Below are positions 9,682-57,520 of a DNA stretch of 64,000 nucleotides, piece after piece. The DNA is from Ostreococcus lucimarinus (lineage: Eukaryota). The first letter of the stretch is position 1. Each line of letters starts with the position of its first letter. Both the position numbers and the translations under genes were made by a program. The DNA lies in NCBI GenBank assembly GCA_000092065.1, contig CP000589.1; one strand, 5' to 3'. The notes under the pieces were generated by a model that worked only from the letters and a program-made list of their open reading frames with translations, searched no databases and was not told the origin of the DNA.

Positions 9682-11283
9682 ATGACCGTCGCGCGCGACG
9701 CCGACGCGCGCCCGCGCGCGCGCGCGGCGACGGAGAGCCTGAAGCGGGCGCAAGAGGCGATTTGGGAAATCTTAGCCTCGGCCGATTCGAGCGACGACGA
9801 CGACGCGTCGAGCGACGCGCCGGACGAATCGATCGCGCGCGAGCGGTCGACGTTCGATATCGCGTCGCCCGCGGGAGCGGCGCGGGAAGGCGCGCGCGAG
9901 GCGGGGACGGGGACGCCGGTGGGCGCGCGACTGGACGCCGCGGCGCTGGCGCTGGAGCGGCGGCGCGCGGAGGCGCTGGACGCGGCGGCGAGCGATGAAC
10001 GCGCGGCGGCGATGGAACTGAGAGAGGCGCGAGAGGCGTTGGAGCGCGCGCAGACGACGGGGCGAGGGCTGGAGGCGCTGGAACGCGCGGTGGCGGAGAG
10101 GGATTTGGAGATATTTAAGCGGGACGACGAGTTGCGAGCGCTCAGAGAGGAAGTCGGGCGGTTGCGGACGCGCGAGGACGACGCGGGAGAGACGATGATG
10201 GTGAGCGCGTCGATAGCGGATGCGAATACGCGCGCGGCGAACGCGGAGGAGGGCGCGAGGGCGATGCGTGAGGCGCTGAAGGACGCGGAGACGAAGAACG
10301 CGCGCGAACGCGCGGCGCTCATGGATGAGCTTCGCGAGTCGCGCGCGCTGGCGGCCAAACACGCGAGAGAGGCGCACGCGCGCGAGGAGGCGAACGCGTC
10401 GAGCAGTGGACGCATCGATGAGGTGGTTTTCATGAGGAAAGAGCTGGACGCGATGGCGAAGAAGGTATCCATCGCCGAAGCCGTTGCCGAGAAGCTCGAA
10501 AGAATCGTCGCCCAAAAATCAGAAGAGGTGTTCAACGCAACGCAAGAGCGAGACGCGCTGCGAAAGAAGCTGAAGACGACGAGCGAGACGATAGATTCGC
10601 TGGAGCGCGAGTGGCTTGAGTTCAATCGCCAAGGTCTGAGCGCGCAAAAAGCGCTGAGCGCCGAAAACGAAGAGCTACACAAGATTGTCGACGACTTGAA
10701 ATCCGCCGAAAAAGATGGCTTCGCCGAAGCCGCGGGCGAAATAGAAGAGTTGAAGGCGCGATTGCGGACGTTTGAGAGCGAATCTGGCGTATCCAACAGA
10801 AGTGTCGATAGAAATCTCGCGCGCGAGTCCATCACATCCTTGAGATCCAAGGTGCGCGAGCTCAAGGGCGACATCGAAGCCAAGGACGCCCAAATCGAAG
10901 ACTTGCGAAACGCGCTGTCGCAAAAGTCCATCATCGAAGCCGTGAACGCGGAGAAGGATGCCGTCATCACCGCGCTGCAAGCACAAATCAACGCGAGTAA
11001 CTCTGCCGCACCTCGATCGGATTCTGAATTCGCCGTGTCCACGCAGAACGACGGCGATATCGACGTCTTGGATGAGTTACAAACCGTCGCGAAGACGCTT
11101 CGTCGAGAAAACGCGGGGCTGCGGCGAGAACTCGAAGACGTCGACCCGGACGTTCTAGAAGAGTGCATCGCGCTGAGTCGACGCGTGACGGCTCAAAACT
11201 CTCTACTCGCGAGCTACGAGGAGCGCTTGGTGCGCTACACCGACCAACTAGGGATTCCGTTCACGCCCGAGGCGCGCCCGTAG
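9682..11283 (+). CDS. long coiled-coil protein (533 aa), function unknown
   Basis: Track ORF 9598 starts at GTG; first ATG 9682. Heptad-rich Glu/Lys/Ala/Leu sequence throughout (LERAQTTGRGLEALERAVAERDLEIFKRDDELRALREEVGRLR...). The antisense ORF 9339..11168 is a Ser-rich artefact. Confidence 0.4.
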   Translation: MTVARDADARPRARAATESLKRAQEAIWEILASADSSDDDDASSDAPDESIARERSTFDIASPAGAAREGAREAGTGTPVGARLDAAALALERRRAEALDAAASDERAAAMELREAREALERAQTTGRGLEALERAVAERDLEIFKRDDELRALREEVGRLRTREDDAGETMMVSASIADANTRAANAEEGARAMREALKDAETKNARERAALMDELRESRALAAKHAREAHAREEANASSSGRIDEVVFMRKELDAMAKKVSIAEAVAEKLERIVAQKSEEVFNATQERDALRKKLKTTSETIDSLEREWLEFNRQGLSAQKALSAENEELHKIVDDLKSAEKDGFAEAAGEIEELKARLRTFESESGVSNRSVDRNLARESITSLRSKVRELKGDIEAKDAQIEDLRNALSQKSIIEAVNAEKDAVITALQAQINASNSAAPRSDSEFAVSTQNDGDIDVLDELQTVAKTLRRENAGLRRELEDVDPDVLEECIALSRRVTAQNSLLASYEERLVRYTDQLGIPFTPEARP

Positions 11284-18596: not shown

Positions 18597-20120
18597 ATGC
18601 GCGTCCCCGCGCGCGATGGGATCAAGCGCGTAATCATCATCGCCTTCTTCTTCGCCGCATCCGCCGTGGAATTCGGCACGTATCCCGTCGCGTCCGTCGT
18701 CGAGTTTCGCGTGCAGGCGCCCAGATTTCCGACGAGTTCGCACCGGAAAAGCTTTCTGAGCGCGCGCGCGCGCGAGCGAGCCACCGCGACGGCATCCGCG
18801 ACGCGATTCGGAGAAGCGTTCGGGTATTCGTGGACCGTAGAGGCGCGTACGCGCGAGACGGACGGTCGGAATGAGGTGGAGGTACGGGCGGCGAGAACGC
18901 GAGGACTCGGGCTGACGTCGACGCGAATGTTCGCGTTCACGGTCGTGACGCGCACGGGAGTATCTGCGCAAAGCATGCGAGATAGACTTGTCGGGACGAG
19001 CGGGCGCGAATTGCCGACGTCGGCGCACATTGAGCAGTCGCTGGTGGAGTCGACGCTGTCGACGGCGGAGTTGACGAAGATCCCGGGGGCGTCTGGGGAA
19101 CATGGCGATGTAGACCTCGTGATACGCGTGCGTTTGTGGAGTAATCCGTTTCACGTGGTGTTCAAGGACGAGGTGTACGATGTGGCGACGATTTTGGGGT
19201 TGACGACGTACGCCAGCGTGTTAATTTTACGCGGGCTGTCTGAGTTGCGAGACGAACGCGAGAGGCGCCGAGCGGCGAGGAAAGTTCGATTGATGCGTTC
19301 GGAGATTGCGCAATTAGAATCAGTGGCGAACGAAAAGGCGGACAAGCTGCGCATCTTGTCGGCTATTGCACGAGTCCCATTTGTCGCGGTGTTTGAGACG
19401 GTTCAAATTCCAATGAGAGTCGTCGACTGGACCGCGTCTGCCATCTCTGACATTCTCATCGAGACGGCAAATTTGGTGCTGATTGTCATCTTACTTTTGA
19501 TGCCCCCGTCGCGCGAAAACGCGCCGATGGCTTCAAGCGAGAATCACGCGAAGCAGGCGACGGGTTCGAAGCATAATCGAAAACATCGTCAAAGACCGCC
19601 GCGCTCGCCGAAACGCAGAAGTGAACTCGACCCCAAGAGCGAGCACGCTCGTAAAGAGTCGATGGACATATTACTGAAACGTTTCGTCATTGCCGAGGAA
19701 GACATGGACGAGGAACGTCAGCGCGCGGCGAAAGATGCGATCGGTCATGCCCAGGCGCAGATGCGCGCGAAAATGAAGCGCGATCGAATCACCGACATGC
19801 GGCTGAGAGATTCAAAGCAGCGTGAAGGTGAAGATTTCGCGGCGGAACTTTTCGCCAATGTCCCAGGCTTATCCGTAGGCACGCGCGACATGAGACCAAT
19901 GTCGTCATCTTCATCGGACACGCACGAGCGCCAGGCGAGCTGGGAGCTGCACAATCGTCAAAAAAGCTTAATTCACCACATGCTGCAAGAAATCGACGGT
20001 TTGGAACTGCCGCCGGATTCCAAAACAACCGTACCGATCGAAGAACCGGTGACGCCGAAGAGCTCGCACACCAAAAATCCAAGCTTTGCTCGCGTATGGA
20101 ATGCCCCGACGGGGTTCTAG
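18597..20120 (+). CDS. hypothetical protein (507 aa), no recognisable domain; possible lineage-specific gene
   Basis: Uninterrupted ORF with strong GC3 bias, flanked by an AT-rich upstream spacer. Hydrophobic N-terminus (VIIIAFFFAASAV), one internal TM (LVLIVILLLM), charged Lys/Arg/Glu/Asp-rich C-half. Confidence 0.35.
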   Translation: MRVPARDGIKRVIIIAFFFAASAVEFGTYPVASVVEFRVQAPRFPTSSHRKSFLSARARERATATASATRFGEAFGYSWTVEARTRETDGRNEVEVRAARTRGLGLTSTRMFAFTVVTRTGVSAQSMRDRLVGTSGRELPTSAHIEQSLVESTLSTAELTKIPGASGEHGDVDLVIRVRLWSNPFHVVFKDEVYDVATILGLTTYASVLILRGLSELRDERERRRAARKVRLMRSEIAQLESVANEKADKLRILSAIARVPFVAVFETVQIPMRVVDWTASAISDILIETANLVLIVILLLMPPSRENAPMASSENHAKQATGSKHNRKHRQRPPRSPKRRSELDPKSEHARKESMDILLKRFVIAEEDMDEERQRAAKDAIGHAQAQMRAKMKRDRITDMRLRDSKQREGEDFAAELFANVPGLSVGTRDMRPMSSSSSDTHERQASWELHNRQKSLIHHMLQEIDGLELPPDSKTTVPIEEPVTPKSSHTKNPSFARVWNAPTGF

Positions 20121-29031: not shown

Positions 29032-29336
29032 TCTTTTTTAGCCTGTTTATAGTCTGTCATTCACGCTTCGTTCGCCCTCGCGTCGCGCCCTCGCGCCGCG
29101 CCGCGCCGCGCCCGGCGCGCCGGCGAGTTGGATAAGTGCGCGCCGAGAGCCTTATCCGTACTTCGCGACGTCCGACGCCGCCCCGAAGGACTTCTGCGCG
29201 CCCGACGCGACGCGCGGGCGTCCAAGACGTGCGTTAGGGGCGTCTGGCGCGCCGCCGATCGCGCGCGCGTCGCGCGTCGCGCGCGAAGGCGTCGTAAAGC
29301 CGCGTGCGCGCGGCCGCCGCGACGTCGACGCGCGCG

Positions 29337-32126
29337 ATGTCGTGCCCGTTCGGCCACGATCGAGCGCCCGCGGCCGTCGCGACGGTGGACGACGATGACA
29401 TCACGAAAGTAATCGTCACCGACGGCGAGCGAGGGACGAAGCGACGGGCGGTGGAGGAGGCGACGAGGGAGGAAGACAAACCAGAGACGCCGAGGGCTGA
29501 CCCCGCGGCGCTCGAGGCGGCGCTCGAGGAGGAACGAGCGCGCAGAAAGCGCGCGGAGAACGAGTTGATGAGCTTGAAGGCGATGTATAGACAGTGCAAG
29601 GCGATGTCGACGGTGCAGAAGGATATCGCGGTGAAGGAATTAGCGATGGACTCGTGCGCGGAGGGTATCACCATCGCGGACTTTACGCAGCCGGACCAGC
29701 CGTTGATTTACGCAAACGTGGGATTCGAGGTAATGACGGGATACAGCGTGCAGGAGACCGTAGGGCACAATTGTCGATTCTTACAAGGGCCGGGGACGGA
29801 TCAAAACGAACTCAACAAGCTTCGGAATGCGATTAAGAAGGGCGAGGCGGTGACGGTGGTGTTGAAGAACTACAAAAAGTCTGGCGAAGAGTTTATGAAT
29901 CAGTTGTCGCTCACGCCAATTCGTGACGCAGACGGACAAGTGATGTACTACGTGGGAATCCAATCCGATGTCACCGAGCTGTTTAAGCGACGCGATGACG
30001 AGCTGAACGCGCTAAAAATGATGGCACGCGCCGAGGCGGCGACAGAAGCCAAGTCGAGATTTTTAGCGCACATGTCGCACGAGATTCGCACGCCTTTGAA
30101 TGGGCTCATCGCCGTGGGGCAATTATTAGAAGACACAAATTTGGATCGGTTGCAAAGGGAGTACGTATCTACGGTACGTACGAGTGGGGAAACGTTGCAA
30201 GCGCTCATCAGCGATATTCTTGACTTCAGCCGGGTCGAGGCAGATAAGCTCGTGCTCCAGTGCGAACCGTTCCACCCAGAGGTAGTCATCGGCAACGTTA
30301 TGGAGATAACAGCCATGCAGTCAGCGAAGAAGAAGATAAACATCGGTTACCACGTGGATATCGGGGTGCCCAAAATCGTCATGGGTGACGCGATGCGCTT
30401 GCAACAAGTGTTGCTGAATTCCATCAGTAACGCCATCAAGTTCACCGACGCAGGCAACATCATGATTCGACTTTACCTCGGCAGAGAGGACACGACGGAA
30501 GTCGCGAGGCAAGCGTTCTTGGAAGATGGCGAAGAAACGCACCACGCCAAGATGGTTCGCTCCTATTCCGCCGGTTCGCTCGCGTCGACACAAAAGGACT
30601 GGCTCGCGCCTCTCAAGTGCTTCCTGCACATGTGCCCGCATTTCTCGGGCAAGTTGAGCGAAGGTGGGAACAAGCCGACGGATGATATGACATCGGATAA
30701 TGAATCCTGGTTTTTGCACTTTTACGTCAAGGACACGGGCATGGGGTTAGATCAAAGCACAATTCATAAGATCTTTCAATCGTTTCAGCAGGTTGAAACG
30801 GGGGCGACGCGCAAATACGACGGCACTGGTCTCGGCTTGGCGATTTCGCGCAAATTGTGTGAAGCGATGGGCGGAACGATGTGGGCCGAAAGTCAAGGGC
30901 TCGGCAAGGGGTCGACTTTCCATTTTTGTATTAAGTGTAAGGCGGTTTCGGAGGATTGGATGAAAGAGAACCAAAAATCGCGCAAGCAACTCGCGAGCGG
31001 GGCGGAGTCGCTCCGGCAGCTCGAGCGCGATTTGAGCGTAGATTATGCGGCGCATTTCAAAAGACCAGGCGAAAAGCTGAGCGTGGTTCTTTACGACGAA
31101 TCTGACATGCTGCGGAGCACGTTGTCCGTGGTGTTGAAGCGATGGGGATTTGCCGTGACGGTTTACGGCAACGCGAAAGATCTCGTCGGTTACATGAGCA
31201 AAGCGATGGATGGTGAAGTTACCGATGTCGCCATTATCGCTGAGTTGAGCAACAACGCCGTAGATTTCATTTATGACTGGGCAAAAGGCAGAGGTTTGCT
31301 GAACGGAGTGAGCGCGGGGCAAGGAAACACGTTCAGTATCCAGTCAAGTGGAGATGACAAACGCCGTTCCAGCGACACGAGCAAGCTTCCACCTTTTGTC
31401 CTTTCGACTTGGCCAGTGGTGCAATCAACCGGCTTTGACACGTCGGACCCTCGGTGTGCGTGGGCAAAGGATAGCGTAGAGGGAACGGAGTCGAGCATTG
31501 ATTCCGTCAAGGGAACCGCCGTTCGAGATTTCTTCTCCTCCATACGATCGCATCTAATTTCGAGACCGGTGCGACACAACAGACTTCGTCGTACTCTCGA
31601 GACGGTTCTTGACGAAAAGGCTCATCACGCCGACGCCGCGGACACTGCGCGTACGGATAGTCCGACGCGAGCGTCTGGGTGCACTCGACGGAAGGTCGAT
31701 TTCGAAGATGGTGTCTCTGGCCAACATGTCTCTGGCCAACATTTGCGAATCTTACTTGCAGAGGATCATCCCGTGAACATGAAGGTCGCAAAAGCTGTGT
31801 TGAGCCGCCTCGGGCACTCCGACGTCACTGGGGCGAAGGATGGGGCGGACGCGTTGGCCAAGGTGCAGGCTGACCCCGCGGGACTCGACGCGTTCGACAT
31901 CGTTCTCATGGACTTACACATGCCAATCATGGGCGGTATCGAGTGTACGCAGCAGTTGCGAAAGCTTTACCCAGACTGCAAGGTGCCAATCATCGCCGTC
32001 ACGGCGGACGCTATCGAAGAGAGCAGACAAGAGTGCTTCGATGCGGGCTTCGATTCGTACCTCACGAAGCCTTTCAGAATCGAACAAATCCAAAAGGCAA
32101 TTCGTACGTTTTGTAAACTTCAGTAA
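29337..32126 (+). CDS. LOV-HK: LOV-domain hybrid histidine kinase (LOV-HK blue-light photoreceptor): LOV/PAS, HisKA, HATPase_c, receiver
   Basis: LOV flavin-binding signature GHNCRFLQGPGTD (photoactive Cys). H-box HMSHEIRTPLNG. ATP-lid G-boxes (GLGLAISRKLCEAMGG). C-terminal REC domain (ILLAEDHPVNMKV...VLMDLHMPIMGG...TKPF). Track start 29304 is GTG; ATG 29337. Confidence 0.85.
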   Translation: MSCPFGHDRAPAAVATVDDDDITKVIVTDGERGTKRRAVEEATREEDKPETPRADPAALEAALEEERARRKRAENELMSLKAMYRQCKAMSTVQKDIAVKELAMDSCAEGITIADFTQPDQPLIYANVGFEVMTGYSVQETVGHNCRFLQGPGTDQNELNKLRNAIKKGEAVTVVLKNYKKSGEEFMNQLSLTPIRDADGQVMYYVGIQSDVTELFKRRDDELNALKMMARAEAATEAKSRFLAHMSHEIRTPLNGLIAVGQLLEDTNLDRLQREYVSTVRTSGETLQALISDILDFSRVEADKLVLQCEPFHPEVVIGNVMEITAMQSAKKKINIGYHVDIGVPKIVMGDAMRLQQVLLNSISNAIKFTDAGNIMIRLYLGREDTTEVARQAFLEDGEETHHAKMVRSYSAGSLASTQKDWLAPLKCFLHMCPHFSGKLSEGGNKPTDDMTSDNESWFLHFYVKDTGMGLDQSTIHKIFQSFQQVETGATRKYDGTGLGLAISRKLCEAMGGTMWAESQGLGKGSTFHFCIKCKAVSEDWMKENQKSRKQLASGAESLRQLERDLSVDYAAHFKRPGEKLSVVLYDESDMLRSTLSVVLKRWGFAVTVYGNAKDLVGYMSKAMDGEVTDVAIIAELSNNAVDFIYDWAKGRGLLNGVSAGQGNTFSIQSSGDDKRRSSDTSKLPPFVLSTWPVVQSTGFDTSDPRCAWAKDSVEGTESSIDSVKGTAVRDFFSSIRSHLISRPVRHNRLRRTLETVLDEKAHHADAADTARTDSPTRASGCTRRKVDFEDGVSGQHVSGQHLRILLAEDHPVNMKVAKAVLSRLGHSDVTGAKDGADALAKVQADPAGLDAFDIVLMDLHMPIMGGIECTQQLRKLYPDCKVPIIAVTADAIEESRQECFDAGFDSYLTKPFRIEQIQKAIRTFCKLQ
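31712..31741. repeat. perfect 15-bp in-frame tandem duplication inside LOV-HK (linker before the receiver domain)
   Basis: gtctctggccaacat x2 (31712..31726, 31727..31741) encoding HVSGQ-HVSGQ. Confidence 0.8.
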
Positions 32127-45433: not shown

Positions 45434-47910
45434 ATGGCGCTGCTCGAGCGCGCGCGAAGCGAACTGGACGCCCTCGAGCGCTCCGTCGCCGAAGGGGACA
45501 CCGCGCGCGCGACGCGCGACGACGACGACGCGACGCCGGCGAAACGCTCGACGACGGCGACGCCCGATCCGTGGACGCGAGCGGCGCCGGATGACGCGCG
45601 CGCGACGCGCGCGGGGCTGACGGTGAAGACGAAGACGCGAGGGGACGGCGAGGGACGGCGGGACGCGACGACGACGACGTTCGCGGAGGCGCTGGCGGAA
45701 GAGTTGAAGGACGCGCGAGGGAATCCCGCGACGCCGGCGTCGAGGGACGTGAGCGATGTGCCGTTGCACGATGCGGTGAAACGGGCGGACGCGGAGGCGG
45801 TGCGAACGATGGTGAGACGAGCGACGGAGGGGGGCGCGAGACGAGAGCCGTCGTGGCCGCCGAGCAAAGCGGCGTTGAATCGAATAGATTCGCTCGGCGA
45901 TTGCAGAAGCGCGCCGCGAGGAGTGGACGCGAAGAATGCGAACGGAGACACCGCGCTGGCGGTGGCGTGCGCGCTGGAGGATGGGAAGGCGTGCGAAGAG
46001 ATGGTGAAGATTTTGGTGGACGCCGGCGCGGACGCGAGCGCGCTTTCAAACGGAATGGCGCCGGTGCACTGGGCGTGCGCGCTAGGGCATCGCGACGCGC
46101 TCGCGTGCATGGTCGACGCGTCGTCGACGTCAATCGTGAATCTTCGTGCCGAAGATGGGTCGACGCCGTTGCTCGTGGCGGCGGAACACGGTAAAATCGA
46201 AGTCATACGATGGTTGCTCGAGCGCGGCGACGTCGACGCGATGGCGAGAAACGCGCATGGACGCGACGTACTCGGCGCGCTCGGCGCGAAGATGCGTCGA
46301 CAGAGTCAATCGGCGAGGAGTGAGTTACGTGCGGAGATATTTGAACTCATTCCTTCGCTGCGTTTGGCGTTTTTGTCCCATCCTGATTGCGAAGAACACG
46401 TGTCGTTCAAGCCACATCAAGAGAGCCCCGAGCGCATAGTCGCCATTCTCGCCGAGTTGCAGCGCGTGATCGACCGCGGTGAACTCGCAATGGGAGAGCT
46501 AGATAAGACATGCACGTTCGGCGCCGCCGAACCGTCGGATATCCTCCGAGCGCACGATGAGAATTACGTCCGCGTGTTGGCCGAACTCAGCGATCGCGTC
46601 GGGCAAACGCCCATCGCGTTCACGCCGTACTGTCAAAACCATAACGGCGTGCCAGAAAAACTACAAAAACCCGCGGAGAACAGTGACACATTCTTTTCAC
46701 CGGGCACGTTGCAAGCGGCGCTTAGAGCTGCGGGCGGGGTCATTCACGCCGTGGATAGAGTCTTGGATGGGAAGAATAGGAGCGCTTTCGTATGCTGTCG
46801 CCCGCCCGGTCATCACGCCGGGATCAACGGCGCCACGGAAGGCGCGCCGTCGAGCGGCTTTTCCATTTTGAACAACGCCATGATCGGTATGTGCGCACTT
46901 TGCGCGAGCGACGCGAGCGATCGATTTTTCTTGAAACGGACGCACACGCATAACCGCGGCGCTTCTACGACACGCGTCGCGGACATGATGCGCGTCCTAC
47001 ATCGACGTCCACTTTCAATGACAGAGAGTTCTGAGCGTGGCTCTGCTGACAGATACGGGTGGTACATTTCGCGCGACTCGACTAACTGACTGACGCTGAC
47101 GTTCACAACGCAGGCGCTTTGCACGCCATCGACGTTCGCAAATGCATGCGGGTCGCCGTGGTTGATTTCGACGTGCATCACGGGAACGGCACCGAAGAAA
47201 TCGCCAGGCATTGGCTCACGAAGCAGCGCGCGAGAGACGACTATCACCGGCACAAATCTCCTGACTTGTTCTTCGCGTCGATTCACTTGGCGGATGATGG
47301 AACGTCTTCGGGCATGCTTCCATTCTACCCGGGCAGCGGCGTGCAGGATGATTTGATGAACAATATCGTCAATGTCGTCGTCCCACCGATGTGGCTCGCC
47401 AAGGGCGCAAGCGCCACGGCACACGCGGAAACCGGCGAGCGCGCTCGGAAAAAAACAAAACGCTTCGCTGACTCTGAAGATGCCGCCGCCGCGCCGCCGC
47501 CGAAGACCATCGCCATTGAACCCGAGCAGCAACAAGGTGGGCGCCTAGAGTGGATGAAGGCGTTTCGAGAGCGCTTGATTCCCGCTCTCAGGGCGTTCGG
47601 TCCTGAGCTCATAATCGTGTCCGCGGGATTCGACGCGGCGGCTTCGGACGTAGGAAACTTGGGCGTCGATCCGCGTCGAAACACGAGGCACCAAGGCGCT
47701 AACCTTCGCGCTGAAGACTACGAGGACATGACGAAGTTGCTCGTAAACGTGTCGAACGTTTGCGATGGGCGAGTTGTATCTATTTTAGAAGGGGGCTACG
47801 GACACTTGATGAGCGTCGGAAAATCGAGCGACGGCGCGCAAAATGCGTTGACGCTCGGTAGAGACGTCTTCGCCAAATGCGTCAAAGCGCACGTCCAGGC
47901 GCTCATCTGA
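45434..47910 (+). CDS. ankyrin-repeat + class II-type histone deacetylase (HDAC/HDAH) fusion; two exons, join(45434..46886,47114..47910)
   Basis: N-terminal ankyrin repeats (GDTALAVACALEDGKACEEMVKILVDAGADA...GSTPLLVAAEHGKIEVIRWLLERG). The HDAC domain is split between track ORFs 45434..47089 and 47119..47910. Exon 1 ends ...RPPGHHAGINGATEGAPSSGFSILNNAMI-G; exon 2 gives ALHAIDVRKCMRVAVVDFDVHHGNGT...SAGFDA...EGGYG. Splicing restores the canonical HDAC spacing between the FN box and the DxDxHHG motif. Confidence 0.8.
46887..47113 (+). other. spliceosomal intron (227 nt, phase 1, GTATGT...CAG) in the ankyrin-HDAC gene
   Basis: Canonical donor GGTATGT at 46886/46887, CTAAC/CTGAC branch-like motifs at -25 to -10, acceptor CAG at 47111..47113. 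An unspliced read-through would lose the HHG catalytic motif and hit a stop at 47089. Confidence 0.7.
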
Positions 47911-51162: not shown

Positions 51163-53187
51163 TCAAGCGCCCGCGGGACGAGCTGACGAGCAACGGAAAC
51201 ACGTCTGGCGCGAACTGAAGCAATGCGCGGAACAGCTCCCACAGATCCAATCCCCACTTCTGAAGTTTTCCGTCTGCGGACCGCCGTCGCGAGAACCTTC
51301 GGACTGCGGCGGAGCTTCGTTGCCCGTCTTCGCGTTGCTGCACTTGAAACAATGATCACGCGACTGAAAATTGTGCGCGGAACAGCTCCCACAGATCCAA
51401 TCCCCAGCACGAAACACGCCAGCTCCCGGACCACCCGCTTCCGAGCTCGCCTTGGACGTCCCGCCCGGCGGCGAAAAGCTCCCTTCCGCGCCTTCGTCTT
51501 TGCCTCTTTTACATCGAAAGCACGAATTTCGGCTCGCGAAGCAATGCGCGTTGCATCGAGCACACGTCCAATCGCCCGGTCGCCGCGCTCCTTGCGGCGC
51601 AGGCACCTCTGAAGACGTCGCCGCCGGAAAATTCTCCTGCGCCGGCGCGCCACCGGCGACGCGTAACCCCAACCACGCAAACGTCAGCGTTAGGTACGGC
51701 GTCCCCGACGGCGCGTTCACGTTGGCGATGGGATCAAGGTGCAAAGCCAATGGAGCGATACGCAACAACCCACTCGCGGCATCGACGCCGCGCTCGCGCA
51801 CCGAACCGACCACGACGCAACTCCCAGTGTTGCTGTGACCCATGGCGCCTACGACGGCTTGATTCACCGGCGCACACACCAAACGCACGTTCGCTCCTTG
51901 GTTCGAAACGACGACCGGCGTGCTTTCGATATCAGCCAACAGGTGCGTGTCCTGCACGATCTCCAACCGAGCCCCTTTGCTCAATCGCGCGCCGAGCTCA
52001 GCCGCGAGACTTGTGCCGTACGGATTCGCCACGCGATCCAACATTGACAAAAACCGCGCCGACCCGACGTTGGCGAGCGTCGATTGCATCATGTTCACCA
52101 GAGGCGCCAAACGCTGCGACCAAGCCGCGGCGTTTTGAGGACGCACGGCGTGTCCACCCGTCAGACTCGTGCATAAAATTCCCGAACCCTCCGCCCCAGA
52201 CGTGAGTTGTTGAAACACGCTGAGTAGTTGCTCGGGCGTCTCCACTTGCATCGATGCCACACCGCCGCCACCGTGCGGCGTCGGGTGCGAAGACACACCT
52301 GCAGCCGCACGCTGCGCGAAGGACCCGCCCGGCGGCGTCGGCGGCGGAACAGCCGCCACGGGCGTGACGGTGGGACCCACCGCCGCTGGTGCCGCCGCTG
52401 AGTGCGCCTTCATCGCCCCGATCGCGCTCGCGTACGAAGGCGGCGCCGCAGCCGCCGCAGGCGCCATAGCCGCTCGCTGCGGTGGCGGCGTGCTCGGCAT
52501 CGGAGGCGCCACCGGCGCCGCGGGCGCCGCCGCGCCGACGCTCGCCGAAGCCGGCGCCGCGCCGAACGCCGCCGTCCCGCTCGAAGCCGCGCCGGACCCG
52601 AAGCCACCACCCCCAGTGGAAAACGACGACACGCTTTCAAACCCACCGAACCCACCACCCAAGCCGAGCCCTAACCCGAGGTTCAACCCGAGCCCCGGCC
52701 CGAGGCCCCCGCCCAAGCCGCCGCCGTCGCCCGCGCCGCTCATCCCCGTCAGCGCGATTTGCGGATTCGGAAACGGATGCGCCTCCTCGCTCAACTGCAC
52801 GCTCACGCATCGCAGCTCCGGCAGCAGCGTCCGCTGTCCCGCGAGGGACTCAGACAACCACGCCGCGAACCCCGCGGCGTCCGTCCCCGCGAACCGCCCC
52901 AGCGTAATCAGTTGCTGATCGGGCCGCTGACTCGCGTAATACGTATCCGCCCCCGGCAACGCCGCGCTCAGCGCCTGCGCGATCCTCAACGACGCGGGAC
53001 AATCGATCCCGACCAACACGCACCCATTCTGCATCACTTTACACTTCGGCAACACTCGCCCGGACGCCGGTCCGTGCGCGCTCGCCACGCGCCGCAGCGC
53101 CTCCGTCACGCCTTCGCCTCCCAAGCCCGTGCCTTCGAGCCCAGACACGAGCGCCACGTGCGGCGGCGCGCATCCCATCCCTATCAT
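51163..53187 (-). CDS. Gly-rich low-complexity protein with three C-terminal RanBP2-type zinc fingers (putative RNA-binding protein)
   Basis: Three ZnF_RBZ units: GDWTCARCNAHCFASRNSCFRC, GDWICGSCSAHNFQSRDHCFKC, GDWICGSCSAHCFSSRQTCFRC. Long GGLGGGLGPGLGLNLGLGLG tract. First ATG 53187 (track ORF start 53364 is GTG). Confidence 0.7.
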   Translation of the reverse strand: MIGMGCAPPHVALVSGLEGTGLGGEGVTEALRRVASAHGPASGRVLPKCKVMQNGCVLVGIDCPASLRIAQALSAALPGADTYYASQRPDQQLITLGRFAGTDAAGFAAWLSESLAGQRTLLPELRCVSVQLSEEAHPFPNPQIALTGMSGAGDGGGLGGGLGPGLGLNLGLGLGLGGGFGGFESVSSFSTGGGGFGSGAASSGTAAFGAAPASASVGAAAPAAPVAPPMPSTPPPQRAAMAPAAAAAPPSYASAIGAMKAHSAAAPAAVGPTVTPVAAVPPPTPPGGSFAQRAAAGVSSHPTPHGGGGVASMQVETPEQLLSVFQQLTSGAEGSGILCTSLTGGHAVRPQNAAAWSQRLAPLVNMMQSTLANVGSARFLSMLDRVANPYGTSLAAELGARLSKGARLEIVQDTHLLADIESTPVVVSNQGANVRLVCAPVNQAVVGAMGHSNTGSCVVVGSVRERGVDAASGLLRIAPLALHLDPIANVNAPSGTPYLTLTFAWLGLRVAGGAPAQENFPAATSSEVPAPQGARRPGDWTCARCNAHCFASRNSCFRCKRGKDEGAEGSFSPPGGTSKASSEAGGPGAGVFRAGDWICGSCSAHNFQSRDHCFKCSNAKTGNEAPPQSEGSRDGGPQTENFRSGDWICGSCSAHCFSSRQTCFRCSSARPAGA

Positions 53188-53268
53188 CGAGTCCGCGGTC
53201 CCGCGCGTCGTCAGTCGTCCGAGATCGCGCGCGCGCGTTCGATTCTTTCGCCAATTCTCAAAACTCGC

Positions 53269-53310
53269 GATCGCATCATCGATCGCATCATCGCGCTTCT
53301 CGCGCTTCTC
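53269..53310. repeat. two adjacent perfect tandem duplications (12-bp x2, then 9-bp x2) in the ZnF / TYW divergent promoter
   Basis: gatcgcatcatc gatcgcatcatc (53269..53292) followed by gcgcttctc gcgcttctc (53293..53310). Confidence 0.8.
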
Positions 53311-53595
53311 CCGTCGTCTCGCGCGTCCTTCGTCGCGCGAGCGCCGCGCGAGACGCGCACGCACCCGCTCGCGGTTCGCTCTGCGCGATGAACTGCCCCT
53401 CGAACGCGCTGCCGCGGTGCCACTGCAGCGCCTGCGCGAGATGCGACACCGCGTGTTCGCTCACGTCGTCGAAGCGCAGGCGCGCGTACGCGTGCGCGCC
53501 GAGCGCGTCGCTCGACATCGCGCGTCGCGCGTCCTCGCGGCGCGGTGCTCGCGCGTTCGCGCGTCGCGCTGTGCGGCGTCGGCACTCTCGCGCGC

Positions 53596-56500
53596 ATGGC
53601 GACGTTCGACGCGCGCAAGGCGCTCGAGCGCGACGCCGTCGTGCTCGGCGACGCCGAGGCGAGCGCGAGGGATCGCAGTCGCGCCGGACGCGTGGACGCG
53701 CGGTGCGAGGCGATCGTGCGCGAGGTGTTCGCGTCGGATGATTTCTTCACGACGAGCTCGTGCTCGGGACGCGTGAGCGTGTTCGCGGAGCGCGGACGCG
53801 GGAAGCGCGAGGGCAAGGGCGAGGGCGGGACGTGGGCGTACGTGTCGCACGAACCGGCGCTGGGCGAGGCGGTGGCGGCGGCGGTGCGCGCGCACGCGGG
53901 GGAGGGGGAGGAGGGCGACGGCGACGGCGAAGGCGGCGGCTGGGCGAAACCGACGCTGACGCTGCGGTTTGAACCGTTCATATTAGCGGTCGAGGCGCGG
54001 GATTTAGACGCGGGAGAGGCGTTCGTGCGGTGCGCGCGAGAGTGTGGGTACAGGGAGAGCGGGATCACGGCGAGTGAGAAACGGGTGATTTGCGCGGCGC
54101 GATGTCAGCTTCGGTTGGACGCGCCGGTGGTGGTGGACGGCGAACGCTTGGTGAGCGATGAGGGGTTGGAGACGCTCGTGCGGTTGGCGAACGAGAAGTT
54201 TCAAGTGAACGCCGATCGAATGGAGCGGTTTCGGGAGGCTTTTAACGCGATGTGCGCGAAGAGGGCGGCCGCGAAGGCGGGGCCGAGCGACGAAGGAGGC
54301 GCGCTCAAGTGCGTCGAGGCAAAGAAGCAAGTCGCGAAGGCTGTGAAAGACGCGCTGAAGCGGGGTGGGTGGTTAGATAACGCCCGTAGATCTGCGACGA
54401 AGAAGAACGACGTGGGTGACGTGGAGTGCGTGATTTTACCCATCAAGCGCGGCGCGGAGACGGCGATTTCCTCAACCGTGACTTCGGACGCAAAGCTCGT
54501 GTTGGCGGCGATTGAAGCGGGAGACGTCGTCGTGTGCGACGACAGCGGGCACGTAAACGGTGGTCTTGGTCTGATGTCTGCGAAGAAGACGCAGAATCCA
54601 GTGACGCAAATGAAACAAGAAGTGGCGGCGATGCTTGAGGCCAAAGGCTTAAATGTCAACTTGGCGCAAGAAGCGCCGACGCGCTGGGAAAAGTTGGGTG
54701 ATTTGGTGTTGCTTCCCGCGAACGCGTTTACGGCGAGCGACTTTAGCGCGTTCGGTGCCGAGTTGTACGCCTGTGTGGCGCGAGTTCTCGGCGCATCGCG
54801 CGTTGCGCGCCAAGCGCCGGTGAGCCAAGGGCCAAAGCGCGAATCTCGCGCGGTGATGCTTTACCCCGAAGGTGCCGATGGTTGGGTCGAGACGAAAGAG
54901 CTCGGCGTAACGTATGGATTAGATGTCACGAAAGTTATGTTTAGCAGTGGTAACGGCACGGAGAAAAACCGCATGGGCGCGGTCGGCGCAAACGGCGAAA
55001 CCGTCGTGGACCTGTTCGCTGGCATCGGTTACTACACTTTGCAGTTACTCAAGAACGCGGGCGCGGCCAAGGTGTACGCGTGTGAGTGGAACCCTAATAG
55101 TTGCGAAGCCTTGCGTCATAATCTGCGCGTGAACGGCGTGGAGTCACGGTGTGAAGTGTTAGAGGGCGACAATCGTCGAACCGCGCCGACGGGCGTCGCC
55201 GATCGCGTCTTACTAGGATTGCTCCCGCACGCTGAGATGTCGTGGGAAACCGCGATTAAAGCGCTGAAACCGAAAGGTGGGGTATTACACGTGCACTCAA
55301 ACGTTAACAGTGGCGATGAGGACGAGTGGATGGTGCGTTTGGTGAGCGAGCTGAAGTCACTGGCCGAGACGAACGGTCGCGGCGATTTAGACATCGTCGT
55401 GGAACACCTCGAGCGCGTGAAATGGTACGGTCCGCGCATTCGACACGTCGTGTGTGACGTTCGCTGTACCAGTCGAACGCATAAAGATGACCTCGCCGCG
55501 ACGCGAAATATGGCCCCGAAAAGCGCTGTCTTGGCGAGACAACCTGCGAGGACGTCGGGAACGAATGTGAGACGCGTTCATCGTCCGTTGCCCGCGGACT
55601 TCAAGAACACGATCGCCGCGCAGCGCGTCCCGGCTGTCATCAGTGGACTCGATATCGGCCAAGCGCCGTGGACGTGGACGCCAAGTTATCTGGCTTCCCT
55701 CGACGGCGTTCCAGAGAAGCTTGTGAGCGTTCACGTCAGTCGTGATCCCAAGCTGGACTTCGTGCGCAAAAACTTCAAATACGTCGTGATGCCTTTTGGT
55801 GAACTACTGGCGAAAGTGAACGATGCGAGCGATGACAATTTCTACTATTTGCGAAGCATTGGGGAGAATCCGCGAAAAGAGCCGGCGCACGCGCTTCTAC
55901 AATTCCCATCGTTTGCGCGCGATTTGAAACTTCCGAGCGAGTTTTGGGGATCCGAAGACAACTACTTCAGCGCCGTCGTTCGCGTGAGCAGTGGCGATTT
56001 ACAGCTCTGGACGCATTATGACGCCATGGATAACATGTTGATTCAGCTTCATGGCGAGAAGCGTGTGCTTCTGTTCCCACCGTCCGTGTCAGGCGACTTA
56101 TATCTTGAAGGTTCGTCATCCGTCGTCCGCGACGTGGACGATCACGATCGAGAATCGTTCCCACGATTCGCGCGCGCTCGAAAAGCGGCGTTGGAAGTCA
56201 TCTTACAACCAGGTGACGTATTGTACATCCCCGCGCTTTGGGCGCACCACGTCACCGCCTTGCACGGCCCGTCGATTGCGCTCAACGTATTTTTCCGACA
56301 CCTCCCCACGAGTGGATACCCATCGAAAGATTTGTACGGGAACGCCGACCCAATCGCGGCTGCGAGTGCGCTCAAATCAATAAACTCCGCGATCGAATCC
56401 TTGAAAGAGTTGCCGCTAGATTACCGTGTATTTTACGCTGGCGTCGCAGCGGCGAGACTGGAGAGTGAGCTTGGCGTCGAATCCGCTCGAAGAGCGCTTG

Positions 56501-56631
56501 CAACGGTGAACGACGACACGCCGAAATCGCGCGGGATGAATTCGCGCGCAACAAAAGGTACAGGCGTGGTCGGCACAGTCTTATCTGCTCTTGCATGCCT
56601 GCTCATTACACGCCGCGCTTCGCGGAAGTGA
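53596..56631 (+). CDS. trifunctional tRNA wybutosine biosynthesis protein: TYW3 + TYW2 (Trm5-like) + JmjC hydroxylase (TYW5-like) fused in one 1011-aa ORF
   Basis: N-terminal TYW3/DUF207 signature DFFTTSSCSGRVSVF. Central TYW2/Met-10 MTase (ETVVDLFAGIGYYTLQLL, VYACEWNPNSCEALRHNLRVNGV, GDNRRTAPTGVADRVLLGLLP, LHVHSNV). C-terminal JmjC/cupin with Fe ligands (LWTHYDAMDNMLIQLHGEKRVLLFPP...LYIPALWAHHVTAL). Track start 53545 is GTG; ATG 53596. Confidence 0.75.
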   Translation: MATFDARKALERDAVVLGDAEASARDRSRAGRVDARCEAIVREVFASDDFFTTSSCSGRVSVFAERGRGKREGKGEGGTWAYVSHEPALGEAVAAAVRAHAGEGEEGDGDGEGGGWAKPTLTLRFEPFILAVEARDLDAGEAFVRCARECGYRESGITASEKRVICAARCQLRLDAPVVVDGERLVSDEGLETLVRLANEKFQVNADRMERFREAFNAMCAKRAAAKAGPSDEGGALKCVEAKKQVAKAVKDALKRGGWLDNARRSATKKNDVGDVECVILPIKRGAETAISSTVTSDAKLVLAAIEAGDVVVCDDSGHVNGGLGLMSAKKTQNPVTQMKQEVAAMLEAKGLNVNLAQEAPTRWEKLGDLVLLPANAFTASDFSAFGAELYACVARVLGASRVARQAPVSQGPKRESRAVMLYPEGADGWVETKELGVTYGLDVTKVMFSSGNGTEKNRMGAVGANGETVVDLFAGIGYYTLQLLKNAGAAKVYACEWNPNSCEALRHNLRVNGVESRCEVLEGDNRRTAPTGVADRVLLGLLPHAEMSWETAIKALKPKGGVLHVHSNVNSGDEDEWMVRLVSELKSLAETNGRGDLDIVVEHLERVKWYGPRIRHVVCDVRCTSRTHKDDLAATRNMAPKSAVLARQPARTSGTNVRRVHRPLPADFKNTIAAQRVPAVISGLDIGQAPWTWTPSYLASLDGVPEKLVSVHVSRDPKLDFVRKNFKYVVMPFGELLAKVNDASDDNFYYLRSIGENPRKEPAHALLQFPSFARDLKLPSEFWGSEDNYFSAVVRVSSGDLQLWTHYDAMDNMLIQLHGEKRVLLFPPSVSGDLYLEGSSSVVRDVDDHDRESFPRFARARKAALEVILQPGDVLYIPALWAHHVTALHGPSIALNVFFRHLPTSGYPSKDLYGNADPIAAASALKSINSAIESLKELPLDYRVFYAGVAAARLESELGVESARRALATVNDDTPKSRGMNSRATKGTGVVGTVLSALACLLITRRASRK

Positions 56632-56683
56632 GACGCGACTCAGCTCAGCCTAGAATGATGAATAGATCTATATAGCTACCTAT

Positions 56684-57520
56684 CTAGCGCGTACTCGCCT
56701 TCAAAATATCGATAATGTGCTTCAAGAGCACTGGTGTCGTCTCTGGAATTCCACCCATGATCGGGAAATCGCTCAACAACCCTTTACCTCTGTAGTAATT
56801 CTCCACCGGAATCGTCGACTTTTTGTACACCTCCAATCGCGCGCGAACGACTTCCTCCGTGTCGTCCGGTCTTTGGGTGAGCTTAGCGAAGCACTCCTGC
56901 GGTGGATTCAGCGGAGGCATAATAATCGTTTGCTCTCCCGCCTTTTCGCTTCTGATGTCGGCGATATTAAACGACTTCCCGCACTCCCCGCACTCTCTCC
57001 GTCCGCAGCACTTTTCCACCAAAATGTCCTCGCGAAGCGTCAAATTCAACACCTGCGTCACTTCCACCATCGTGCTAAGCGTCTCCGCCTGCGGCACCGT
57101 TCGAGGGAATCCATCTAACAAAAATCCTCGCTCACCCTCCGCCTCGCCGCGCTTGACGCGCTTGTCGAGGATATCCAGCACCAACGCGTCCGGGACGAGT
57201 TCGCCTCGCGCCGCGATGGCTTTCATCTCCTTCCCGAGCGCCGTCTCCCCCTTGATCTCCGCGCGAACGAGATCACCCATGGATATGTGCGGCACGCCCA
57301 TCTGCTTCGCCATTCTCGACGCGTACGTGCCCTTGCCGACGCCGGGAGCGCCCAAGAAGACCCAGTTTAGCTTTTTGCCTTGCTCGAGCACGCCGTCGCA
57401 CGTCGACGCGAGTTCGTCGCGCAGCGCGTCCACGGCAGCGCCCGTGGCGTCGAACGGGGTCGAGGCATACTTTCTAGAGAGCGCACGCGCGGTGACGACG
57501 GAAAGACGCCGCGCGAACAT
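56684..57520 (-). CDS. adenylate kinase (long type with LID domain) carrying an organellar transit-like N-terminus
   Basis: P-loop GAPGVGKGT. NMP-binding GDLVRAE...GELVPD. LLDGFPRT. LID with CGRRECGECGKSF. ATG at 57520..57518. Confidence 0.9.
   Translation of the reverse strand: MFARRLSVVTARALSRKYASTPFDATGAAVDALRDELASTCDGVLEQGKKLNWVFLGAPGVGKGTYASRMAKQMGVPHISMGDLVRAEIKGETALGKEMKAIAARGELVPDALVLDILDKRVKRGEAEGERGFLLDGFPRTVPQAETLSTMVEVTQVLNLTLREDILVEKCCGRRECGECGKSFNIADIRSEKAGEQTIIMPPLNPPQECFAKLTQRPDDTEEVVRARLEVYKKSTIPVENYYRGKGLLSDFPIMGGIPETTPVLLKHIIDILKASTR

What the first reader, a model, noticed from the sequence alone, without database searches (positions are those of the whole stretch)
53596..56631. 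Single-ORF fusion of three wybutosine-pathway enzymes (TYW3-TYW2-TYW5-like JmjC)
A continuous 1011-codon ORF contains, N- to C-terminal, a TYW3 domain (DFFTTSSCSGRV), a TYW2/Trm5-like aminocarboxypropyl/methyltransferase (VVDLFAGIGYYTL...VYACEWNPNSCEAL...LHVHSNV) and a JmjC/cupin domain with HxD...H iron ligands. The land-plant fusion I know of is TYW4-TYW2-TYW3 (kelch/LCMT-containing), and TYW5 is a free-standing JmjC hydroxylase in animals. A TYW3-TYW2-JmjC order would be a different architecture. It would imply that hydroxywybutosine-type chemistry (or a novel JmjC step) is physically channelled with the preceding steps in this lineage.
Basis: partly seen in the sequence, partly recalled or inferred. 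Interest (0 to 1): 0.6.

Follow-up and report, generated by a model that had tools for sequence, protein, structure and literature searches.

The report
Known green-algal TYW3–TYW2–TYW5 fusion gene
This is a real single gene in the tiny marine alga Ostreococcus that joins three consecutive enzymes of the wybutosine tRNA-modification pathway, but the same fusion in green algae was published in 2010, so it is not new.

Summary
Window 53596-56631 (+) is one uninterrupted 1011-codon ORF. It encodes, in order, TYW3 (Pfam 3e-55), TYW2 (4e-34, plus its N-terminal domain) and a JmjC/Cupin_8 domain (4e-40). The JmjC domain is a clear TYW5 orthologue: human TYW5 matches at E=4e-71, JMJD5 and FIH only at about 1e-12. 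All iron, 2-oxoglutarate and TYW5-specific arginine residues are kept. The window most likely comes from Ostreococcus lucimarinus CCE9901.

The novelty claim fails. Iyer, Abhiman, de Souza and Aravind (NAR 2010, PMC2938197) described Tyw3+Tyw2 in one polypeptide with the JmjC domain at its C-terminus in chlorophyte algae. They used that fusion to help predict the wybutosine hydroxylase. I found the same domain order in dozens of relatives down to 39% identity, and in Coccomyxa and Chlorokybus. Bryopsis has it with a Kelch insert.

Two smaller points may be new. RefSeq represents this gene only by a 278-aa partial protein. Mamiellophyceae versions also carry a C-terminal hydrophobic tail that looks like a membrane anchor, which is untested. 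Enzyme activity, the final nucleoside and TYW1/TYW4 in this genome were not testable here.

The parts
53596..56631 (+). Complete 1011-codon ORF plus stop codon, encoding the TYW3-TYW2-TYW5 fusion protein
   Evidence: The identical protein occurs on two other assemblies.
53653..54246 (+). TYW3 module (aa 20-217), the N4-methyltransferase that converts yW-86 to yW-72
   Evidence: Pfam PF02676 3e-55. PDB Taw3 homologues PH1069 and AF2059 match. AF2 predicts a folded module with a long helix at aa 188-228.
53749..53772 (+). TYW3 signature (S/T)xSSCxGR, here T52-T-S-S-C-S-G-R59. The companion invariant residues are D34 (53695-53697) and H85 (53848-53850).
   Evidence: The motif is defined by Currie et al. 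2017. The residues are invariant or nearly invariant in a 24-sequence alignment.
54250..54312 (+). Short TYW3/TYW2 junction (aa 219-239), the place where relatives carry the TYW4-type Kelch propeller. There is no Kelch remnant here.
   Evidence: BLASTP to Bryopsis, Marchantia and Chlorokybus resumes at aa 239-240, after their Kelch domains. AF2 gives low pLDDT at aa 229-234.
54313..55467 (+). TYW2 module (aa 240-624): N-terminal domains plus a Rossmann-fold aminocarboxypropyl transferase that converts imG-14 to yW-86
   Evidence: Pfam PF25133 and PF02475. The best PDB matches are TYW2 PH0793 and MJ1557 at 3e-29, against 3e-18 for Trm5b. NCBIfam Taw2 scores 1e-34 against 2e-20 for Trm5b.
55009..55035 (+). 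SAM-binding glycine motif DLFAGIGYY (aa 472-480) of the TYW2 Rossmann fold
   Evidence: D472, A475, G476, G478 and Y479 are invariant.
54631..55464 (+). The part of the gene (aa 346-623) covered by RefSeq XP_001419563.1 / ABO97856.1, a 278-aa 'predicted protein, partial' of O. lucimarinus CCE9901
   Evidence: 278/278 residues identical
55468..55590 (+). TYW2/TYW5 linker (aa 625-665), predicted disordered
   Evidence: AF2 pLDDT is below 50 at aa 631-655. There is no Pfam hit.
55591..56475 (+). TYW5 module (aa 666-960): JmjC/Cupin_8 Fe(II)/2-oxoglutarate hydroxylase plus two C-terminal helices
   Evidence: Pfam PF13621 4e-40. Human TYW5 3AL5 matches at E=4e-71 and 243 bits, 44% identity over 279 aligned residues, against 52 bits for JMJD5. 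AF2 predicts helices at aa 920-937 and 941-958.
56014..56022 (+). Iron-binding H807-x-D809 of the TYW5 module. The third ligand, H884, lies at 56245-56247. The 2-OG contacts are Y751, N813 and K822. The TYW5-specific arginines are R753 (55852-55854) and R796 (55981-55983).
   Evidence: Human TYW5 residues from Kato et al. 2011, mapped through the alignment. All are at least 90% conserved.
56476..56556 (+). Spacer (aa 961-987) between the TYW5 helices and the terminal hydrophobic segment
   Evidence: AF2 pLDDT is below 50 at aa 972-994. The spacer is absent from non-Mamiellophyceae relatives.
56557..56628 (+). C-terminal hydrophobic segment GTGVVGTVLSALACLLIT (aa 988-1005) followed by the basic end RRASRK. 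This is a candidate tail anchor.
   Evidence: It holds the highest Kyte-Doolittle peak of the whole protein. AF2 predicts a helix at aa 992-1008 with low confidence. The feature is kept, with diverged sequence, in nearly all Mamiellophyceae-like relatives and is absent elsewhere.

Best explanation
The ORF is the Ostreococcus lucimarinus orthologue of the chlorophyte Tyw3+Tyw2+JmjC (TYW5) fusion gene. One polypeptide carries three catalytic modules on flexible linkers, and all three act on nucleotide 37 of tRNA-Phe. The reaction order is inferred from the yeast and human pathway. The TYW2 module transfers the aminocarboxypropyl group of SAM to imG-14, giving yW-86. The TYW3 module methylates N4, giving yW-72. 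[quoted passage not shown] Those are three consecutive steps. A separate LCMT-type enzyme would be needed to finish hydroxywybutosine. What is shown here is the continuous ORF, the three family memberships, TYW5 orthology, conservation of every tested catalytic residue, conservation of the fused ORF across relatives, and single transcripts in relatives. What is inferred is the enzymatic activities, any substrate hand-over between modules, and the final nucleoside.
For: The ORF and its domains are. TYW5 orthology rests on 243 bits to human TYW5 against 52 bits to JMJD5 and FIH. Residues Y751, R753, R796, H807, D809, N813, K822 and H884 match human Y106, R108, R149, H160, D162, N166, K175 and H235. 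The TYW3 signature T52-R59 with D34 and H85 is present. The middle module is closer to TYW2 than to Trm5. The same order is found in P0002, P0016, Coccomyxa P0038 and Chlorokybus P0046, and with a Kelch insert in Bryopsis P0043 and Coccomyxa P0040. Catalytic residues are invariant or nearly invariant across 24 relatives. A complete MMETSP transcript ORF (P0140, 1107 aa) aligns to window aa 11-962, and O. mediterraneus UniRef entries align to aa 120-1005. AF2 gives three confident modules joined by low-confidence linkers, with mean pLDDT 82 and pTM 0.40. The published description is in Iyer et al. 2010. The TYW5 substrate yW-72 is stated in Currie et al. 2017, citing Noma et al. 2010.
Against: There is no biochemical or nucleoside data for any green alga in the searchable literature. 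No transcript evidence was obtained for O. lucimarinus itself. TYW1 and a TYW4/LCMT partner were not found among the window's large ORFs, and the rest of the genome could not be searched. The basic residues on the C-terminal helices that Kato et al. propose for tRNA D-arm binding in human TYW5 are not kept, being S924, S931 and E934. One 96%-identical (DNA) assembly has the gene split by a 1-nt insertion at codon 665. The downstream part is still under purifying selection, with 11 synonymous against 3 non-synonymous codon differences.
Confidence: 0.9

Rival explanations
1. The ORF is continuous, but the modules are made or used as separate proteins, through internal promoters, internal initiation or proteolytic processing in the linkers. 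The 'fusion' would then have no channelling role.
For: The linkers at aa 229-234 and 631-655 are predicted disordered. In-frame ATGs exist near both boundaries, at M219 and M639. One related assembly has the gene called as two ORFs split at codon 665. Yeast enzymes each work alone in vitro, according to Currie et al. 2017 citing Noma 2006.
Against: The frame is kept open across both linkers in relatives down to 39% identity. A complete single transcript ORF exists in a 52%-identical relative. The split in L003 is one extra base. The downstream part there shows 11 synonymous against 3 non-synonymous changes, which fits an assembly error.
Confidence: 0.06
2. The JmjC domain is not a wybutosine hydroxylase. 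It would instead be a protein hydroxylase of the JMJD5/FIH/HSPBAP1 type, recruited for another purpose such as regulating the methyltransferases.
For: Cupin_8 is a broad family, and weaker matches to JMJD5, FIH and JMJD7 exist. The basic helix patch of human TYW5 is not conserved.
Against: The score to human TYW5 is about 190 bits higher than to any other solved JmjC protein. The two arginines that are specific to TYW5 and essential for activity, R108 and R149 (Asp and Leu in FIH), are kept as R753 and R796. Iyer et al. place the chlorophyte domain in the orthologous yW-hydroxylase cluster.
Confidence: 0.03
3. One or more modules are catalytically dead remnants, so the gene encodes fewer than three activities.
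For: Nothing specific was found. This is a general possibility for multi-domain fusions.
Against: Every catalytic or cofactor residue that could be checked is present and conserved across relatives. The comparison with L003 shows purifying selection in the TYW2 and TYW5 parts.
Confidence: 0.03

Closest known systems
Chlorophyte Tyw3+Tyw2+JmjC (yW hydroxylase) fusion described by Iyer, Abhiman, de Souza and Aravind, NAR 2010 (PMC2938197)
   Same: The three domains, their order and the single-polypeptide arrangement are the same. The lineage is also the same: chlorophyte algae, with Ostreococcus tauri listed among their alignment species.
   Different: Nothing differs in architecture. This is the O. 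lucimarinus orthologue. The C-terminal hydrophobic tail and the absence of Kelch specifically in Mamiellophyceae are not mentioned in the text I could read.
Human TYW5 (C2orf60; PDB 3AL5/3AL6)
   Same: It shares 44% identity over 279 aligned residues. The HxD...H iron ligands, the 2-OG contacts, the essential R108 and R149, and the two C-terminal helices are all present.
   Different: Human TYW5 is a free-standing 315-aa protein. The basic patch on its helix bundle is replaced here by S924, S931 and E934. It has no membrane tail.
Land-plant 'tRNA wybutosine-synthesizing protein 2/3/4' (e.g. Marchantia P0078, Oryza, Arabidopsis-type)
   Same: TYW3 is N-terminal and TYW2 C-terminal within one polypeptide. 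The TYW2 parts align from window aa 240 onward.
   Different: Land plants have a TYW4-type Kelch propeller between TYW3 and TYW2 and no TYW5 domain. Iyer et al. report loss of the hydroxylase in multicellular plants.
Four-module TYW3-Kelch-TYW2-TYW5 proteins of Bryopsis (P0043) and Coccomyxa (P0040, P0041, P0045)
   Same: The modules are the same and are collinear.
   Different: They have a Kelch propeller of about 300-700 residues at the TYW3/TYW2 junction. They lack the C-terminal extension and hydrophobic tail.
TYW4-JmjC fusions of some ascomycetes, choanoflagellates and kinetoplastids (Iyer et al. 2010)
   Same: The principle is the same: the yW hydroxylase domain is fused to another enzyme of the pathway.
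   Different: The partner is TYW4 (LCMT2 plus Kelch), not TYW3+TYW2.

Membership tests
TYW3/Taw3 methyltransferases (PF02676) | A profile match above the curated threshold over the whole domain | tested here: met
   187 bits against a cut-off of 27, profile positions 10-210 of 211. PDB Taw3 homologues match.
TYW3/Taw3 methyltransferases (PF02676) | The signature (S/T)xSSCxGR plus an invariant upstream Asp and downstream His (Currie et al. 2017) | tested here: met
   The residues are T52-T-S-S-C-S-G-R59, D34 (18 residues upstream, as in yeast D32/T50) and H85. They are invariant or nearly invariant in relatives.
TYW3/Taw3 methyltransferases (PF02676) | N4-methylation of yW-86 on tRNA-Phe | not testable with these tools
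   This needs an enzyme assay or complementation of a yeast tyw3 deletion.
TYW2/Taw2 aminocarboxypropyl transferases | The TRM5/TYW2 Rossmann domain plus the TYW2 N-terminal domain | tested here: met
   PF02475 scores 118 bits (cut-off 28). PF25133 scores 27.7 bits, exactly at its cut-off of 27.7.
TYW2/Taw2 aminocarboxypropyl transferases | Closer to TYW2/Taw2 than to the paralogous Trm5 m1G methyltransferases | tested here: met
   PDB TYW2 PH0793 and MJ1557 match at 3e-29 and 3e-27, against 3e-18 for Trm5b and 9e-12 for Trm5 MJ0883. NCBIfam Taw2 scores 1e-34 against 2e-20 for Trm5b. All of these are below the archaeal equivalog cut-offs, as expected for a eukaryote.
TYW2/Taw2 aminocarboxypropyl transferases | Transfer of the acp group, not the methyl group, from SAM to C7 of imG-14 | not testable with these tools
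   The TYW2 structure paper was not held, so acp-specific residues were not checked. An assay is needed.
TYW5 (yW-72 hydroxylase, JmjC/Cupin_8) | Membership of the TYW5 orthologous group rather than the JMJD5, FIH, JMJD7 or HSPBAP1 groups | tested here: met
   243 bits to human TYW5 against at most 52 bits to any other solved JmjC protein. No formal phylogeny was made.
TYW5 (yW-72 hydroxylase, JmjC/Cupin_8) | The Fe(II) triad HxD...H and the 2-OG contacts (Tyr, Asn, Lys) | tested here: met
   H807, D809, H884, Y751, N813 and K822 are present and at least 90% conserved.
TYW5 (yW-72 hydroxylase, JmjC/Cupin_8) | The TYW5-specific essential arginines R108 and R149, which recognise the yW-72 carboxylate | tested here: met
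   They are R753 and R796 here.
TYW5 (yW-72 hydroxylase, JmjC/Cupin_8) | A C-terminal two-helix domain used for dimerisation, with a basic patch for tRNA binding | tested here: inconclusive
   The helices are present, at aa 920-937 and 941-958, and the alignment runs through them. The three basic positions are S924, S931 and E934. Dimerisation was not tested.
TYW5 (yW-72 hydroxylase, JmjC/Cupin_8) | Hydroxylation of yW-72 on tRNA-Phe, with OHyW present in the organism | not testable with these tools
   No nucleoside data for green algae were found.
Chlorophyte Tyw3+Tyw2+JmjC fusion (Iyer et al. 2010) | The three domains in that order in one polypeptide, in a chlorophyte alga | tested here: met
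Land-plant TYW2/3/4 fusion | A TYW4-type Kelch propeller between TYW3 and TYW2 | tested here: not met
   There is no Kelch hit. The junction is only about 20 residues.
Tail-anchored membrane proteins | A single hydrophobic helix within about 30 residues of the C-terminus and no other membrane segment | tested here: inconclusive
   The protein has an 18-residue uncharged segment at aa 988-1005 followed by RRASRK. This is the top hydropathy peak of the protein, with a mean of 1.6 over 19 residues, which is only moderate. AF2 predicts a helix at aa 992-1008 with low pLDDT. The feature is conserved in related lineages. No dedicated transmembrane predictor or localisation data were available.

The most novel reading that the evidence does not exclude
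In Mamiellophyceae (Ostreococcus and its relatives) the three-enzyme wybutosine module has lost the Kelch domain and gained a C-terminal tail anchor of about 60 residues. If so, steps 3 to 5 of tRNA-Phe hypermodification would happen on the cytosolic face of a membrane. I found no report of this for any wybutosine enzyme fusion in the searchable literature. The end product might also differ from canonical OHyW if no TYW4-type partner exists.
Probability: 0.35. Interest if true: 0.35.

Novelty: already known. Interest (0 to 1): 0.13.

Why it matters
Three practical points remain. First, the RefSeq model for this O. lucimarinus gene is a 278-aa fragment and should be replaced by the 1011-aa protein. 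Second, the green lineage shows a mosaic of architectures that traces gain and loss of Kelch and TYW5: TYW3-TYW2, TYW3-TYW2-TYW5, TYW3-Kelch-TYW2-TYW5, Kelch-TYW2-TYW5 and TYW3-Kelch-TYW2. Third, a possible membrane anchor in Mamiellophyceae could be tested in the transformable O. tauri.

Tried and rejected
1. I looked for TYW1 and TYW4/LCMT in the window. Pfam scans of 20 large ORFs found only unrelated housekeeping genes.

2. I looked for a tRNA-Phe gene in the window to check G37 and found none.

3. The supplement of Iyer et al., which holds per-genome orthologue lists, is not held. The TYW2 structure paper (PMID 19717466) is not held either.

4. Literature searches for hydroxywybutosine or wybutosine in Chlamydomonas or Micromonas, for TYW5 in algae, and for tail-anchored wybutosine enzymes returned nothing relevant.

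5. I considered that aa 218-349 might be a degenerate Kelch remnant. I rejected this because aa 240 onward aligns with the post-Kelch TYW2 N-terminal region of Bryopsis and Marchantia.

6. I considered that the split gene in L003 shows a natural separation of TYW5. I rejected this as unlikely. It is a single extra C, removing it restores the full frame, and the downstream part is under purifying selection.

7. I considered an assembly chimera and rejected it, because the identical protein with the same neighbours occurs on two other assemblies.

8. The AF2 inter-domain arrangement is uninformative (pTM 0.40), so I make no claim about the geometry of any channelling.
Full report
**Observation.** Window 53545..56631 (+) is an open frame of 1028 aa counted from an upstream GTG. 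From the window's base composition, a stop-free run of that length has a probability of about 6e-14.

A Pfam scan gives four non-overlapping matches in one order:
- TYW3 (PF02676) at aa 20-217, 3e-55
- TYW2 N-terminal domain (PF25133) at aa 350-423
- TRM5/TYW2 methyltransferase (PF02475) at aa 433-571, 4e-34
- Cupin_8 (PF13621) at aa 666-905, 4e-40, with JmjC_2 inside it

The identical 1011-aa protein is encoded, with the same neighbours, on two independent public assemblies. The ORF is therefore not an artefact of this window.

**Organism.** RefSeq XP_001419563.1 (ABO97856.1) is a 'predicted protein, partial' of Ostreococcus lucimarinus CCE9901. It is 278/278 identical to aa 346-623 of the ORF. 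The window is therefore most likely from that genome or a near-identical strain. The public model found for this gene covers only the TYW2 core.

The surrounding genes are ordinary, densely packed nuclear genes. They include RMI1, a pseudouridine synthase, a P-type ATPase, SMC, SIR2, a LOV-type histidine kinase, CPSF73, a kinesin, a RanBP2-zinc-finger protein directly upstream on the other strand, and adenylate kinase directly downstream, convergent. None of the ORFs scanned is TYW1 or a TYW4/LCMT enzyme. There are no tRNA genes in the window.

**Identity of the three modules.**

*JmjC part.* It matches human TYW5 (PDB 3AL5) at E=4e-71 and 243 bits. The next solved JmjC proteins (JMJD5, FIH, JMJD7) reach at most 52 bits. 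Kato et al. 2011 list the functional residues of human TYW5. Mapped through the alignment, every one is present:
- Fe ligands H160, D162 and H235 correspond to H807, D809 and H884.
- 2-oxoglutarate contacts Y106, N166 and K175 correspond to Y751, N813 and K822.
- TYW5-specific arginines R108 and R149 correspond to R753 and R796. Mutating either abolishes hydroxylation, and they are Asp and Leu in FIH.

The two C-terminal helices that form the human dimer interface are present. The three basic positions proposed to bind the tRNA D-arm are S924, S931 and E934 here.

*TYW3 part.* It has the family signature (S/T)xSSCxGR as T52-R59, with the invariant Asp (D34) and His (H85) defined by Currie et al. 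2017.

*Middle part.* It is closer to archaeal TYW2/Taw2 structures (3e-29) than to Trm5 (3e-18 and weaker). NCBIfam ranks Taw2 models above Trm5b.

In an alignment of 24 relatives these residues are invariant or at least 90% conserved.

**Anatomy.** BLASTP against Bryopsis, Marchantia and Chlorokybus proteins shows that window aa 240-349 align with the TYW2 N-terminal region that follows their Kelch domain. The TYW3/TYW2 junction is therefore only about 20 residues (aa 219-239) and contains no Kelch remnant.

AlphaFold2 on the 24-sequence alignment gives three confidently folded modules with mean pLDDT 82. Low-confidence linkers lie at aa 229-234, 631-655 and 972-994, and a terminal helix is predicted at aa 992-1008. 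With pTM at 0.40, the relative arrangement of the modules is undetermined.

**Relatives and architecture.** A search of about 5.8 billion proteins found the same Pfam set in many proteins from 98% down to 39% identity, mostly from marine metagenomes. Named green algae are also among the hits. Explicit Pfam scans show the following orders:

| Architecture | Examples |
|---|---|
| TYW3-TYW2-Cupin_8 | P0002, P0016, Coccomyxa subellipsoidea C-169 (P0038), Chlorokybus (P0046) |
| TYW3-Kelch-TYW2-Cupin_8 | Bryopsis (P0043), Coccomyxa sp. Obi (P0040) |
| Kelch-TYW2-Cupin_8 | Edaphochlamys (P0055) |
| TYW3-Kelch-TYW2 | Marchantia (P0078) |

The NCBI name of Coccomyxa sp. Obi P0040 already reads 'probable tRNA wybutosine-synthesizing protein 5 at C-terminar half'. 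Chloropicon has TYW3-TYW2 only (P0099). The land-plant entries have Kelch but no LCMT domain and no cupin.

**Single transcript.** I found no transcript data for O. lucimarinus itself. In a 52%-identical relative, an MMETSP transcript with a complete ORF (P0140, 1107 aa) aligns to window aa 11-962. O. mediterraneus UniRef entries of 916 aa align to aa 120-1005. To my knowledge that accession series is transcriptome-derived.

One 96%-identical (DNA) metagenome contig (L003) has the gene called as two overlapping ORFs. The cause is a single extra C at codon 665, and deleting it restores a 1012-codon frame. The TYW5 part downstream differs from the window by 11 synonymous and 3 non-synonymous codons. 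It is still under purifying selection, so the split is most likely an assembly or sequencing error.

[quoted passage not shown] They used these fusions to predict that this JmjC family is the wybutosine hydroxylase.

[quoted passage not shown] It is marked as present in plants only in chlorophyte algae. Ostreococcus tauri is among the species of their alignment figure. They also state that in plants the Kelch domain of TYW4 lies between Tyw3 and Tyw2, and that multicellular plants lost the hydroxylase. Currie et al. 2017 repeat that plant TYW2, TYW3 and part of TYW4 form one fusion protein, taken as support for a multienzyme complex. The architecture in the finding is therefore already published for this lineage.

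**Mechanism.** The pathway comes from the yeast and human work as summarised in Currie et al. 2017. TYW2 converts imG-14 to yW-86. TYW3 converts yW-86 to yW-72. TYW5 hydroxylates yW-72 to OHyW-72. TYW4 then finishes OHyW.

The three fused modules thus catalyse three consecutive steps on the same nucleotide of the same tRNA. The gene order (TYW3, TYW2, TYW5) is not the reaction order (TYW2, TYW3, TYW5). The likeliest benefit is keeping tRNA-Phe bound while G37 is passed between active sites on flexible linkers, together with fixed stoichiometry. That benefit is an inference and was not tested. Loss of the basic helix patch of free-standing TYW5 would be compatible with tRNA affinity being supplied by the other modules, which is also an inference.

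**A detail outside the finding.** The protein ends with a spacer of about 27 residues, then an uncharged segment GTGVVGTVLSALACLLIT (aa 988-1005), then RRASRK. This is the strongest hydropathy peak in the protein.

The Ostreococcus-like relatives P0001-P0014 all have a 61-76-residue extension after the TYW5 'YRxFY' helix. The extension ends in an uncharged stretch of 12-22 residues followed by 2-4 basic residues, although the sequence itself is poorly conserved. Most of the more distant Mamiellophyceae-like relatives (P0016-P0037) also end in a hydrophobic stretch plus basic residues. In one subgroup (P0021-P0031) the stretch is short and weakly hydrophobic. Coccomyxa, Bryopsis, Chlorokybus and the Volvocales have only 10-31 residues after the helix and no such stretch.

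This looks like a lineage-specific tail anchor, but the hydrophobicity is moderate and I had no dedicated predictor. I found no report of it.

**Verdict.** The novelty claim is refuted by a 2010 paper and by the wide distribution of the architecture. Remaining value lies in correcting the truncated gene model and in the untested tail anchor.

Noticed in passing
window 56476-56628 (aa 961-1011 of the ORF): The protein has a C-terminal extension that ends in an 18-residue uncharged segment plus RRASRK, which is tail-anchor-like. The feature is kept, with diverged sequence, in nearly all Mamiellophyceae-like relatives. It is absent from Coccomyxa, Bryopsis, Chlorokybus and Volvocales homologues. 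I found no literature on it.
   Followed up: partly
window 54631-55464: RefSeq XP_001419563.1 (O. lucimarinus CCE9901, 'predicted protein, partial', 278 aa) covers only aa 346-623 of the 1011-aa ORF. The public gene model looks truncated at both ends.
   Followed up: yes
L003 3001-6040 (ENA ERZ10646527 contig_17894): In a 96%-identical (DNA) relative, one extra C at codon 665, in the TYW2/TYW5 linker, splits the gene into a 715-aa TYW3+TYW2 ORF and a 304-aa Cupin_8 ORF. Removing the base restores the frame. The downstream part shows 11 synonymous against 3 non-synonymous codon changes, so this is probably an assembly error.
   Followed up: yes
window 56365-56397 (S924, S931, E934): [quoted passage not shown] All active-site residues are conserved.
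   Followed up: partly
proteins P0038, P0040, P0043, P0045, P0046, P0049-P0059, P0055, P0078, P0099: The green lineage shows a mosaic of architectures: TYW3-TYW2 (Chloropicon), TYW3-TYW2-TYW5, TYW3-Kelch-TYW2-TYW5 (Bryopsis, several Coccomyxa), Kelch-TYW2-TYW5 (Edaphochlamys), TYW2-TYW5 of about 700-800 aa from unnamed metagenome organisms, and TYW3-Kelch-TYW2 (land plants). The Kelch-less Coccomyxa C-169 model (942 aa, 'partial') conflicts with Kelch-containing models from other Coccomyxa. It may be a gene-model artefact.
   Followed up: partly
window 56632-56683; L004 3487-3548: Adenylate kinase (56684-57520, minus strand) is convergent with the fusion gene, with only 52 bp between the two stop codons. 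The same neighbour and orientation are kept in a 52%-identical relative (L004), so the 3' ends must abut or overlap.
   Followed up: partly
window 29304-32126 (+): A 940-aa ORF with PAS_9 (LOV-like), HisKA, HATPase_c and receiver domains. This is a hybrid histidine kinase of the LOV-HK type, which I recall as already described in Ostreococcus.
   Followed up: no
window 51163-53364 (-): The divergent upstream gene encodes a protein with RanBP2-type zinc fingers near its C-terminus. Pfam scores one finger, and two more GDWxCxxC repeats are visible in the translation. It also has a long Gly/Ala/Pro-rich low-complexity stretch. Local GC reaches 71%, and several long spurious ORFs overlap it on both strands.
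   Followed up: no
window 9339-11168 (-) and 18597-20120 (+): Two long ATG-initiated ORFs (608 and 507 aa) have no Pfam match at E<=1e-5.
   Followed up: no
window 45434-47089 (+): This ORF combines ankyrin repeats with a histone-deacetylase domain. The domain matches only the first 135 of 298 profile positions, so the gene may continue past an intron or be truncated.
   Followed up: no
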